Shown in pieces: positions 19,939-20,013 of a stretch of DNA of 33,548 nucleotides. The notes below the pieces were generated by a model. It worked only from the letters and a program-made list of their open reading frames with translations, was not told the origin of the DNA and did no database searches. Source of the DNA: Acidobacteriota bacterium (GTDB taxonomy: Bacteria > Acidobacteriota > Blastocatellia > RBC074); the NCBI GenBank assembly GCA_031401095.1, contig JANNRD010000455.1, positions 1-33,548 of the forward strand, in the 5' to 3' direction. Positions within the stretch are counted from its first letter, which is position 1. Every line of letters begins with the position of its first letter. Position numbers and translations under genes: made by a program.

Positions 19939-20013
19939 TCCTCAGTAGCTCAATGGTAGAGCACCCGGCTGATAACAGGGGGGTTGTAGGTTCGAGTCCT
20001 ACCTGAGGAGCCA
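19939..20013 (+). tRNA. tRNA with an Asn-type body (U1-A72, G73, encoded CCA) but anticodon GAT, with a G30-A40 mismatch in the anticodon stem
   Basis: Manual cloverleaf: TCCTCAG/TA/GCTC-AATGGTA-GAGC/A/CCCGG-CTGATAA-CAGGG/GGGTT/GTAGG-TTCGAGT-CCTAC/CTGAGGA/G/CCA. Acceptor and T arm resemble E. coli tRNA-Asn (TCCTCTG...TTCGAGTCC...CAGAGGAGCCA). Confidence 0.85.

What the first reader, a model, noticed from the sequence alone, without database searches (positions are those of the whole stretch)
19939..20013. The only full-length tRNA has an Asn-type body but anticodon GAT and a broken anticodon stem
All five displaced 3' fragments read CTGTTAA-CCGGG. Joined to the resident 5' half (..CCCGG), that gives anticodon GTT (Asn) and a perfect 5-bp stem. 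The intact gene instead reads CTGATAA-CAGGG, so position 19972 is A rather than T and 19977 is A rather than C. This gives anticodon GAT (Ile codons AUC/AUU) and a G30-A40 mismatch. The U1-A72 pair, G73 discriminator and T arm are those of bacterial tRNA-Asn. The R arm behind this copy also differs slightly from the others, so the segment from the anticodon loop onward may have been supplied by the most recently integrated element. Under that reading, integration rewrote the anticodon of the target tRNA. The alternative is plain decay of a redundant gene. AsnRS normally reads all three anticodon bases and IleRS reads GAU, so the identity and charging of this tRNA are ambiguous.
Basis: partly seen in the sequence, partly recalled or inferred. 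Interest (0 to 1): 0.65.

Follow-up and report, generated by a model that had tools for sequence, protein, structure and literature searches.

The report
Damaged tRNA-Asn gene heading island array
The only complete tRNA gene on this Acidobacteriota contig is a tRNA-Asn gene used repeatedly as a landing site by small mobile cassettes, and two base changes in its cassette-supplied half (anticodon GTT to GAT, plus a broken stem pair) most likely crippled it rather than giving it a new function.

Summary
ARAGORN calls 19939-20013(+) tRNA-Ile(GAT), and Rfam flags one non-standard pair in the anticodon stem. Five displaced 3' fragments all read CTGTTAA-CCGGG.

The 55-nt core of the body (D arm to T arm, all that the scan tested) matches the tRNA-Asn(GTT) of eight Acidobacteriota genomes except at 19972 (U35A) and 19977 (C40A). 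None of the eight carries the variant, and each shows the gene once.

The gene is the attL end of a tandem array of at least five cassettes that carry no integrase gene. From the anticodon loop onward it is cassette-supplied sequence, followed by a cassette arm.

Random sequencing error is unlikely. Independent short-read contigs match other parts of the contig at 99.9-100%, but none covers the anticodon.

The two changes remove an Asn determinant, cost 10 bits against the tRNA model and favour a misfolded anticodon arm. The Ile determinants A73 and C4-G69 are absent.

My reading is a crippled hybrid tRNA, tolerated only if another tRNA-Asn gene exists, which I could not test. Whether the changes arrived with the cassette or arose in place is unresolved. 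One of the four local differences is absent from an independent assembly of that cassette.

Interest is moderate to low.

The parts
19939..20013 (+). Full-length hybrid tRNA gene (attL): tRNA-Asn body, anticodon GAT, G30-A40 mismatch, encoded CCA
   Evidence: ARAGORN. Rfam tRNA scores 64.3 bits here against 74.2 bits for the wild-type gene in L001. The 55-nt core is identical, apart from the two changed positions, to tRNA-Asn(GTT) in 8 Acidobacteriota MAGs.
19939..19968 (+). Native 5' part of the tRNA (acceptor 5' strand, D arm, 5' strand of the anticodon stem); unique in the window
   Evidence: No similarity to the junction repeats left of C32. Identical to the same part of six of the eight related tRNA-Asn genes; L004 and L008 differ at position 5.
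19969..20013 (+). Cassette-supplied 45-nt tRNA 3' part (anticodon loop to CCA) carrying U35A (19972) and C40A (19977)
   Evidence: Aligned with five displaced copies that all have T and C at these positions.
20014..20076 (+). P' arm of cassette 1, with an extra T (20014-20016) and C at 20026; putative arm-type site ACTGAACAAA at 20051-20060
   Evidence: Repeat family D4, alignment, motif count. The Logan contig L009 reads G at 20026.
20094..20753 (-). Cargo of cassette 1: DUF5615 protein (20094-20444) and DUF433 protein (20445-20753), read as a toxin-antitoxin-like pair
   Evidence: Pfam. Found at 99.9% identity in a Logan contig from SRR20217207.
20940..21154 (+). Junction J1: P arm with two ACTGAACAAT motifs, displaced tRNA 3' fragment 21048-21092 (GTT, C40), P' arm
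24236..24260 (+). Decayed tRNA scrap (T arm to CCA only) inside cassette 2; remnant of an older junction
   Evidence: 3-mismatch hit, alignment. The Logan contig L010 runs through it.
25129..25343 (+). Junction J2: P arm, displaced fragment 25237-25281, P' arm
26157..26371 (+). Junction J3: P arm, displaced fragment 26265-26309, P' arm
27485..27699 (+). Junction J4: P arm, displaced fragment 27593-27637 (U47A in the variable loop), P' arm
30992..31144 (+). Junction J5: P arm plus the last displaced fragment 31100-31144 (G46C), followed by a different flank. Presumably the original 3' half of the gene with its chromosomal flank.

Best explanation
The gene is a real tRNA-Asn gene that serves as the chromosomal attachment site at the head of a tandem array of small integrative cassettes.

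**Shown**
- The first 30 nt are native.
- From the first base of the anticodon loop onward the sequence is the 45-nt tRNA replica that each cassette carries, followed by a cassette P' arm. The gene is therefore an attL hybrid.
- That replica differs from the conserved lineage sequence, and from all five displaced copies, at U35A and C40A. Two further changes lie just 3' of CCA.

**Inferred**
- The hybrid no longer works as tRNA-Asn, because U35 is an identity determinant for AsnRS and for non-discriminating AspRS.
- Its anticodon arm is weakened and is predicted to prefer a CUG/CAG mini-hairpin.
- It lacks the non-anticodon Ile determinants A73 and C4-G69. At best it is a weak surplus Ile acceptor, and most likely an inert or nearly inert pseudo-tRNA.
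- It is collateral damage at a recombination hot spot, tolerated because Asn codons are read by another gene elsewhere in the genome.
- The same two changes alter the presumed crossover region and one core arm. They should therefore also block further integrase action at the array head.

**Origin of the changes**
This is unresolved. I lean slightly (about 55:45) towards mutation in place after the last integration rather than import with the cassette.
For: - **Identity.** The 55-nt core of the body matches tRNA-Asn(GTT) of 8 Acidobacteriota MAGs from several classes apart from the two changed positions. 0 of 8 carry the variant, and the 55-nt pattern matched once in each of the eight assemblies.
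- **Rarity.** The variant is absent from the JGI metagenome and IMG/VR collections.
- **attL structure.** Identity with the junction repeats begins exactly at C32. The P' arm follows CCA. Arm motifs ACTGAACAAW are found 17 times against 2.1 expected, always in the same layout.
- **Damage.** The Rfam tRNA score falls from 74.2 bits (wild type, L001) to 64.3 bits. The minimum-free-energy fold of the mutant replaces the anticodon stem-loop by ((((..(((....)))..)))). The wild type and the U35A-only version give the cloverleaf.
- **Determinants.** Asn: the three anticodon bases plus G73. Ile: anticodon, discriminator, C4-G69, the 12-23 pair, C29-G41 and D-loop bases. Amidotransferase: U1-A72 (PMC9976931).
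- **Not random error.** Independent Logan contigs match 9,194 nt of this contig with 2 mismatches and 0 indels. Reads mis-mapped from the five other copies would pull the consensus towards GTT, not away from it.
- **Drift.** The unselected copies J4 and J5 carry one substitution each in the 45 nt. Two in the head copy is the level expected of an unconstrained copy.
Against: - In the eight relatives this tRNA-Asn sequence appears once per genome. Redundancy in this organism is assumed, not shown. If the gene were the only tRNA-Asn, the mutant would be lethal and this explanation would fail.
- No tRNA-Asn is present elsewhere on the contig.
- Cloverleaf elements outside the anticodon arm are intact and a TTGACA hexamer lies about 50 nt upstream, so the gene may still be transcribed and processed.
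- No reads or independent contig cover 19939-20019, so the variant rests on one assembly.
- Four differences within 55 nt beside an otherwise identical arm hint at a single event rather than gradual decay, but the clustering is not statistically significant.
Confidence: 0.6

Rival explanations
1. Integration rewrote the anticodon. Cassette 1 carried a drifted tRNA replica (A35, A40, extra T, C at 20026), perhaps acquired while sitting inside an array. Site-specific recombination at the anticodon loop then installed it in the resident gene.
For: - All four head-specific differences lie on the cassette-derived side of the crossover boundary and are contiguous with cassette 1. None lies in the native 30 nt.
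- Displaced copies do drift, as J4 and J5 show.
- The standard tyrosine-recombinase model (inference) would leave attL with A35/A40 and the next junction with T35/C40 after segregation of an overlap heteroduplex. That is the pattern seen.
Against: - A35 sits in the middle of the presumed 7-bp overlap and A40 in the core arm. From general knowledge of tyrosine recombinases, heterology there usually blocks recombination.
- The independent assembly of cassette 1 (L009, SRR20217207) has the consensus G at 20026.
- No free or differently placed copy of the variant core was found.
- The 0-of-30 against 2-of-45 split is not significant.
Confidence: 0.3
2. The hybrid is an expressed, charged tRNA kept by selection. 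Either it is a new tRNA-Ile(GAU) gene made from an Asn body, or it is an ambiguous decoder that inserts Asn at AUC/AUU.
For: - The anticodon loop CUGAUAA is exactly that of a bacterial tRNA-Ile(GAU), with A37 and A38. C29-G41 and U12-A23 are present. The acceptor, D and T arms are intact.
- The anticodon is a strong IleRS determinant (PMC9976931).
Against: - G73 instead of A73, U4-A69 instead of C4-G69, and U16 and A21 in the D loop.
- The second change breaks the anticodon stem rather than compensating for anything, and favours a misfold.
- Two further changes fall in non-tRNA flank, which suggests unselected drift.
- The variant is unique to this contig.
- Asn at Ile codons would be toxic across the proteome. 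AsnRS and ND-AspRS need U35.
Confidence: 0.07
3. Assembly artefact. The variant bases come from another locus or strain, or are consensus errors at a repeat.
For: - The locus lies at the edge of a six-fold repeat.
- One nearby position (20026) disagrees with an independent assembly.
- One difference is a homopolymer length (TTT against TT).
- No independent sequence covers the anticodon.
Against: - The contig agrees with Logan short-read contigs at 99.97-100% with no indels over 9.2 kb.
- The five other copies all read T and C, so cross-mapping cannot create A and A.
- With its four differences, the head junction is the least repetitive junction and so the easiest to assemble.
Confidence: 0.07
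4. It is an ordinary tRNA-Ile(GAT) gene.
For: ARAGORN labels it Ile from the anticodon.
Against: - Body identity with tRNA-Asn of the phylum.
- U1-A72 and G73.
- Five in-register displaced fragments with GTT.
- A73 and C4-G69 are missing.
Confidence: 0.01

Closest known systems
Genomic islands integrated in tRNA genes with an anticodon-centred attachment site (Islander class A; PMC4383910)
   Same: An intact tDNA followed by direct-orientation 3' tDNA fragments marking island ends. The identity block runs from the anticodon loop to the 3' end. Newer elements in the tandem array push older ones downstream.
   Different: - The regenerated gene is normally a faithful copy. Here it carries a changed anticodon and a broken stem pair while the displaced fragments stay wild type.
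- None of the five or more elements has an integrase gene.
- Arrays of three or more were found in only 4 of 2168 genomes in Islander.
tRNA-dependent lysogeny of mycobacteriophages (Guerrero-Bustamante & Hatfull 2024, PMC10865867)
   Same: Integration at a tRNA gene leaves the host without a functional copy at attL, so the cell depends on another gene of the same isotype.
   Different: - There the loss comes from a short (~10 bp) common core, and the phage itself carries the complementing tRNA.
- Here the core is a full 45 nt, the damage is two point changes, and no complementing tRNA lies in the array or on the contig.
Anticodon-shifted ('remoulded' or isotype-mismatch) tRNA genes (recalled from the literature, not checked here)
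   Same: The body of one isotype carries the anticodon of another through a single anticodon substitution.
   Different: Documented functional cases keep an intact anticodon stem and usually recur in related genomes. This one has a stem mismatch, is unique to one contig and sits on a recombination junction.
Tycheposon island arrays next to tRNA genes in Prochlorococcus (bioRxiv 10.1101/2020.12.28.424599)
   Same: Successive integrations at one tRNA, with partial tRNA copies between elements, degenerate remnants and cargo modules.
   Different: A different phylum and a different att architecture. Tycheposons are defined by their integrase and replication modules. Here the cassettes are 1-4 kb, mostly toxin-antitoxin pairs, with no recombinase.

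Membership tests
Bacterial tRNA-Asn(GUU) | Cloverleaf body matching the tRNA-Asn of the lineage | tested here: met
   The 55-nt core (D arm to T arm) is identical, apart from positions 35 and 40, to tRNA-Asn in 8 Acidobacteriota MAGs. The acceptor stem is also identical in six of them.
Bacterial tRNA-Asn(GUU) | G73 discriminator and U1-A72 pair (amidotransferase determinant) | tested here: met
   Read from the sequence. Determinants from PMC9976931.
Bacterial tRNA-Asn(GUU) | Anticodon G34 U35 U36 | tested here: not met
   The anticodon is GAT, with A at 19972.
Bacterial tRNA-Asn(GUU) | Fully paired 5-bp anticodon stem | tested here: not met
   G30-A40 is flagged by Rfam. The minimum-free-energy fold is not a cloverleaf in this arm.
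Bacterial tRNA-Ile(GAU) | Anticodon GAU with A37 and A38 | tested here: met
   The loop is CTGATAA at 19969-19975.
Bacterial tRNA-Ile(GAU) | A73 discriminator | tested here: not met
   G at 20010. Determinant from PMC9976931.
Bacterial tRNA-Ile(GAU) | Stem determinants C4-G69, the 12-23 pair and C29-G41; D-loop G16, D20, D21 | tested here: not met
   U4-A69 is wrong. U12-A23 and C29-G41 are present. U16 and A21 are wrong (list).
tRNA-integrating genomic island, anticodon-centred class | Intact tDNA plus same-orientation 3' tDNA fragments, with identity starting at the anticodon loop | tested here: met
   Five 45-nt fragments plus one scrap, all on the + strand. Identity starts at C32.
tRNA-integrating genomic island, anticodon-centred class | An integrase gene in each island | tested here: not met
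   Pfam scans of the main ORFs on the contig (30 proteins, including every ORF of 80 aa or more that I took to be a gene in the array) found no recombinase.
tRNA-integrating genomic island, anticodon-centred class | Integration regenerates a faithful target gene | tested here: not met
   The regenerated gene differs from the displaced copies at two positions, including the anticodon.
tRNA-dependent lysogeny | Short common core, so that the tRNA cannot be rebuilt | tested here: not met
   The common core is 45 nt and covers the whole 3' part.
tRNA-dependent lysogeny | The element carries a tRNA of the disrupted isotype | tested here: not met
   No other tRNA on the contig.
Integron | An intI gene next to the cassette array | tested here: not met
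   The upstream neighbours are cytochrome c peroxidase and SecA. No recombinase on the contig.

The most novel reading that the evidence does not exclude
A mobile cassette, by recombining at the anticodon loop, replaced the anticodon of its target gene. The result would be an expressed tRNA with an Asn body that reads Ile codons and is charged by IleRS or, ambiguously, through the Asn pathway. That would be a natural tRNA identity switch written by site-specific recombination, and reversible by excision because wild-type 3' halves are stored downstream.
Probability: 0.06. Interest if true: 0.75.

Novelty: new member of a known kind. Interest (0 to 1): 0.33.

Why it matters
The usual rule is that integration into a tRNA gene restores a faithful gene while the displaced fragment decays. 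Here the displaced fragments are pristine and the working copy is the mutant.

If the gene proves to be the cell's only tRNA-Asn, or proves to be charged, that would be a real puzzle about tRNA identity and about the cost of using tRNA genes as landing pads.

If, as I think, it is a crippled redundant copy, it is a small but clear example that cassette-supplied tRNA halves can degrade the target and freeze an integration hot spot. It is also a caution that anticodon-based tRNA calls at island junctions can mislabel the isotype.

Tried and rejected
**Searches for an independent assembly of the tRNA head**
- Exact-protein look-ups with the upstream peroxidase, the HI0933-like protein, a 33-aa antisense ORF across the tRNA and a 74-aa ORF reaching into it found nothing.
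- Homology searches with the whole peroxidase and with its N-terminal 110 aa gave a nearest relative at 75% identity and no near-identical fragments.
- A look-up with the DUF5615 toxin returned only L009, which stops 7 nt short of the tRNA.

**Searches for the variant or the cassette family elsewhere**
- The GAT variant is absent from JGI metagenomes and from IMG/VR.
- The P-arm/core junction is absent from both collections.
- The 45-nt core is absent from IMG/VR.

**Integrases and synteny in relatives**
- No integrase lies next to tRNA-Asn in the eight relatives. Only an IS110 transposase turned up in L004.
- There is no synteny between those loci and the window.

**Readings rejected**
- An ordinary tRNA-Ile.
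- Random sequencing error.
- Systematic error at the GTTAAC and CCGG motifs, because the five other copies contain the same motifs and read normally.

**Weak evidence set aside**
- The clustering of the four differences is not significant: 4 in 58 nt against 0 in the next 47 nt, one-sided p about 0.1 by my own estimate.
- The promoter scan did not call a + strand promoter upstream of the tRNA. TTGACA at 19882-19887 is followed by TAGTAT after only 15 nt.

Full report
**1. The observation**

- ARAGORN finds a single tRNA gene in the window, at 19939-20013(+), and names it tRNA-Ile with anticodon gat.
- The Rfam tRNA model matches 19939-20010 at 64.3 bits and marks one non-standard pair in the anticodon stem.
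- Reading the sequence with standard numbering gives U1-A72, G73 and an encoded CCA. The anticodon stem is CCCGG/CAGGG with G30 opposite A40. The loop is CUGAUAA, with G34 at 19971, A35 at 19972, U36 at 19973 and A40 at 19977.
- The 12-mer CTGTTAACCGGG occurs exactly five times downstream, at 21048, 25237, 26265, 27593 and 31100.
- The T-arm/acceptor 22-mer occurs seven times against zero expected, counting the full gene and a decayed scrap at 24236.
- The sequence behind the full gene differs from the arm behind the other copies by one extra T (20014-20016) and by C for G at 20026.

**2. What the gene was**

I scanned one genome per species of 185,579 species for the tRNA body, with N at the two variable positions. 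Eight Acidobacteriota MAGs matched, including Vicinamibacteria, Blastocatellia and 'Candidatus Onstottus'.

- All eight genes are called tRNA-Asn(gtt), and all read T35 and C40.
- Six have an acceptor stem identical to the window's. L004 and L008 carry a compensated 5-68 swap.
- Each assembly gave one hit, so this sequence is single-copy in those relatives.
- The wild-type gene scores 74.2 bits against Rfam tRNA, so the two substitutions cost 10 bits.
- The GAT variant was not found in the JGI metagenome collection or in IMG/VR.

The gene is therefore a tRNA-Asn gene with U35A and C40A, not a tRNA-Ile gene.

**3. The context: an attL at the head of a cassette array**

Aligning the six junctions shows a repeat of about 215 nt with three parts:

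- a P arm of about 105 nt with two tandem ACTGAACAAT motifs;
- the 45-nt tRNA 3' part;
- a P' arm of about 62 nt with one ACTGAACAAA motif.

The motif occurs 17 times against 2.1 expected, always in this layout and on this strand. Identity between the junction repeats and the tRNA begins exactly at C32, the first base of the anticodon loop. This is the anticodon-centred class of tRNA attachment sites, which accounts for 2083 of 3919 islands in Islander (PMC4383910).

The full gene is followed by a P' arm, so its sequence from 19969 onward came from a cassette. The last fragment (31100-31144) is followed by a different flank and is presumably the original 3' half.

Between the junctions lie cassettes of 1-4 kb:

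| Cassette | Span | Cargo |
|---|---|---|
| C1 | 20014-21047 | DUF433/DUF5615 pair |
| C2 | 21093-25236 | MNT/HepT pair, FG-GAP protein (453 aa), decayed tRNA scrap, small ORFs |
| C3 | 25282-26264 | PIN protein with a small partner |
| C4 | 26310-27592 | small unknown ORFs |
| C5 | 27638-31099 | 123-aa ORF, 723-aa FG-GAP_2 protein, decayed paralogue of C1 |

No recombinase was found among the 30 proteins scanned, which cover the main ORFs of the contig. Upstream of the tRNA are ordinary chromosomal genes, cytochrome c peroxidase and SecA.

**4. Is the variant real?**

The protein database lists the window's own peroxidase on a single contig of 33,548 nt, so the window is a whole contig. Four Logan short-read contigs from runs SRR20217196, SRR20217205 and SRR20217207 overlap it:

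| Contig | Window span | Agreement |
|---|---|---|
| L009 | 20020-20946 | 1 mismatch |
| L010 | 21665-25245 | 1 mismatch |
| L011 | 21637-24066 | identical |
| L012 | 31293-33548 | identical |

. That is 2 mismatches and no indels in 9,194 compared bases, so four random errors within 58 nt are not credible. Reads mis-mapped from the five other copies would push the consensus towards GTT/C, not away from it. With its four differences, the head junction is also the least repetitive junction.

No independent contig covers 19939-20019, however, and I could not retrieve one. The one mismatch of L009 is at 20026. There the independent assembly has the consensus G. At least one of the four head-specific differences is therefore polymorphic, or specific to this assembly.

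**5. What the two changes do**

Identity rules are taken from the review PMC9976931:

- Bacterial Asn identity rests on all three anticodon bases plus G73.
- The indirect pathway uses an AspRS that also reads the anticodon, and an amidotransferase that reads U1-A72.
- Ile identity rests on the anticodon, the discriminator, t6A37, C4-G69, the 12-23 pair, C29-G41 and D-loop bases.

The hybrid keeps G34, U36, G73 and U1-A72 but loses U35. It gains the exact Ile anticodon loop and has C29-G41 and U12-A23. It has G73 instead of A73, U4-A69 instead of C4-G69, and U16 and A21 in the D loop.

C40A breaks the G30-C40 pair. RNAfold then prefers a CUG/CAG mini-hairpin that buries G34 (-28.0 kcal/mol). 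The wild type and a U35A-only version fold as a cloverleaf (-29.2 kcal/mol). The second change is thus damaging rather than compensatory. This argues against a selected identity switch.

**6. How the changes arose**

*Import with cassette 1.*
- For: all four differences lie on the cassette side and none in the native 30 nt. Unselected copies do drift, and J4 and J5 each have one substitution. The textbook strand-exchange model would produce exactly attL = A35/A40 and next junction = T35/C40.
- Against: A35 is in the centre of the presumed overlap and A40 in a core arm, which should make such a cassette a poor substrate. L009 shows cassette 1 with the consensus base at 20026.

*Mutation in place.* This needs only relaxed selection on the head copy. 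The counts are too small to separate the two routes (0 of 30 native nt against 2 of 45 replica nt; 4 of 58 against 0 of 47 further along the arm). I lean slightly towards mutation in place.

Either route needs another functional tRNA-Asn gene in the genome, which I cannot check. That is the main weakness of the 'crippled redundant copy' reading, given single-copy status in the relatives.

**7. Comparison with known systems**

- The architecture is that of tRNA-targeting islands in tandem (Islander, tycheposon arrays). It differs in having no integrase in any unit and in having a regenerated gene that is not faithful.
- The nearest functional precedent for integration leaving a dead tRNA at attL is tRNA-dependent lysogeny (PMC10865867). 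Its two defining features, a short core and an element-borne replacement tRNA, are not met here.
- Isotype-mismatch tRNA genes are known in general. That statement is from memory and was not checked.

**8. Verdict**

- Most likely (about 0.6) this is a real but crippled hybrid tRNA-Asn at an integration hot spot.
- Import by integration is possible as the origin (about 0.3, not exclusive of the above).
- A selected Ile-reading or ambiguous tRNA is unlikely (about 0.07), as is an assembly artefact (about 0.07).
- The decisive tests are read mapping in the three named runs and a tRNA census of the genome bin.

Noticed in passing
window 20014-31144: The array resembles an integron in use but not in parts. 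It holds at least five cassettes of 1-4 kb, mostly toxin-antitoxin pairs (DUF433/DUF5615, MNT/HepT, PIN), each bounded by a full attP-like site: a P arm with two ACTGAACAAT motifs, a 45-nt tRNA replica and a P' arm with one motif. No recombinase gene lies on the 33.5-kb contig, so the cassettes would have to be moved in trans. The junction sequence was not found in the JGI metagenomes or IMG/VR.
   Followed up: partly
window 24236-24260: A tRNA scrap covering only the T arm to CCA, followed by a decayed P'-like start (TTCTTTCCCAT). Cassette 2 is probably two older cassettes fused after most of a junction was deleted. The Logan contig L010 confirms that the region is contiguous.
   Followed up: partly
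window 30703-30983 against 20368-20930: The end of cassette 5 is a paralogue of cassette 1, about 77-95% identical in blocks. It keeps the DUF433 side, but the DUF5615 toxin is cut down to its first ~25 codons. A 27-nt direct repeat (28276-28302 and 30679-30705) brackets the FG-GAP_2 gene that lies in between.
   Followed up: no
window 28956-30121 (-): The 723-aa protein consists of seven FG-GAP_2 repeats encoded by a 165-nt tandem DNA repeat at 60-74% identity.
   Followed up: no
window 31276-31450 (+): A group II intron D1-D4 match (69.6 bits) lies about 130 nt after the last tRNA fragment. There is no intron-encoded protein on that strand, because the HipA/HipB genes occupy 31934-33413 on the other strand. 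It looks like a 5' intron fragment. The Logan contig L012 starts at 31293, inside this match.
   Followed up: no
window end, 33548: The independent Logan contig L012 ends one base beyond the window's last base. Both assemblies therefore break at essentially the same point, which suggests a repeat or mobile element immediately beyond the contig.
   Followed up: no
L001, L003 and L005 (downstream of tRNA-Asn); L005 about 2.1 kb downstream: In three related MAGs the bases just after the tRNA-Asn CCA (A/TTCCTTTCAAC/T...) resemble the start of the window's P' arm (TTCTTTTCAAT...). L005 also has a displaced T-arm-only fragment 2.1 kb downstream. tRNA-Asn may be a recurrent integration target in this phylum. 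No integrase was seen in the 8-kb loci.
   Followed up: partly
window 27608 and 31107: Two displaced fragments carry single substitutions in the variable loop: U47A in J4 and G46C in J5. J1-J3 are identical to the wild-type gene. This gives a rough measure of drift in unselected copies.
   Followed up: yes
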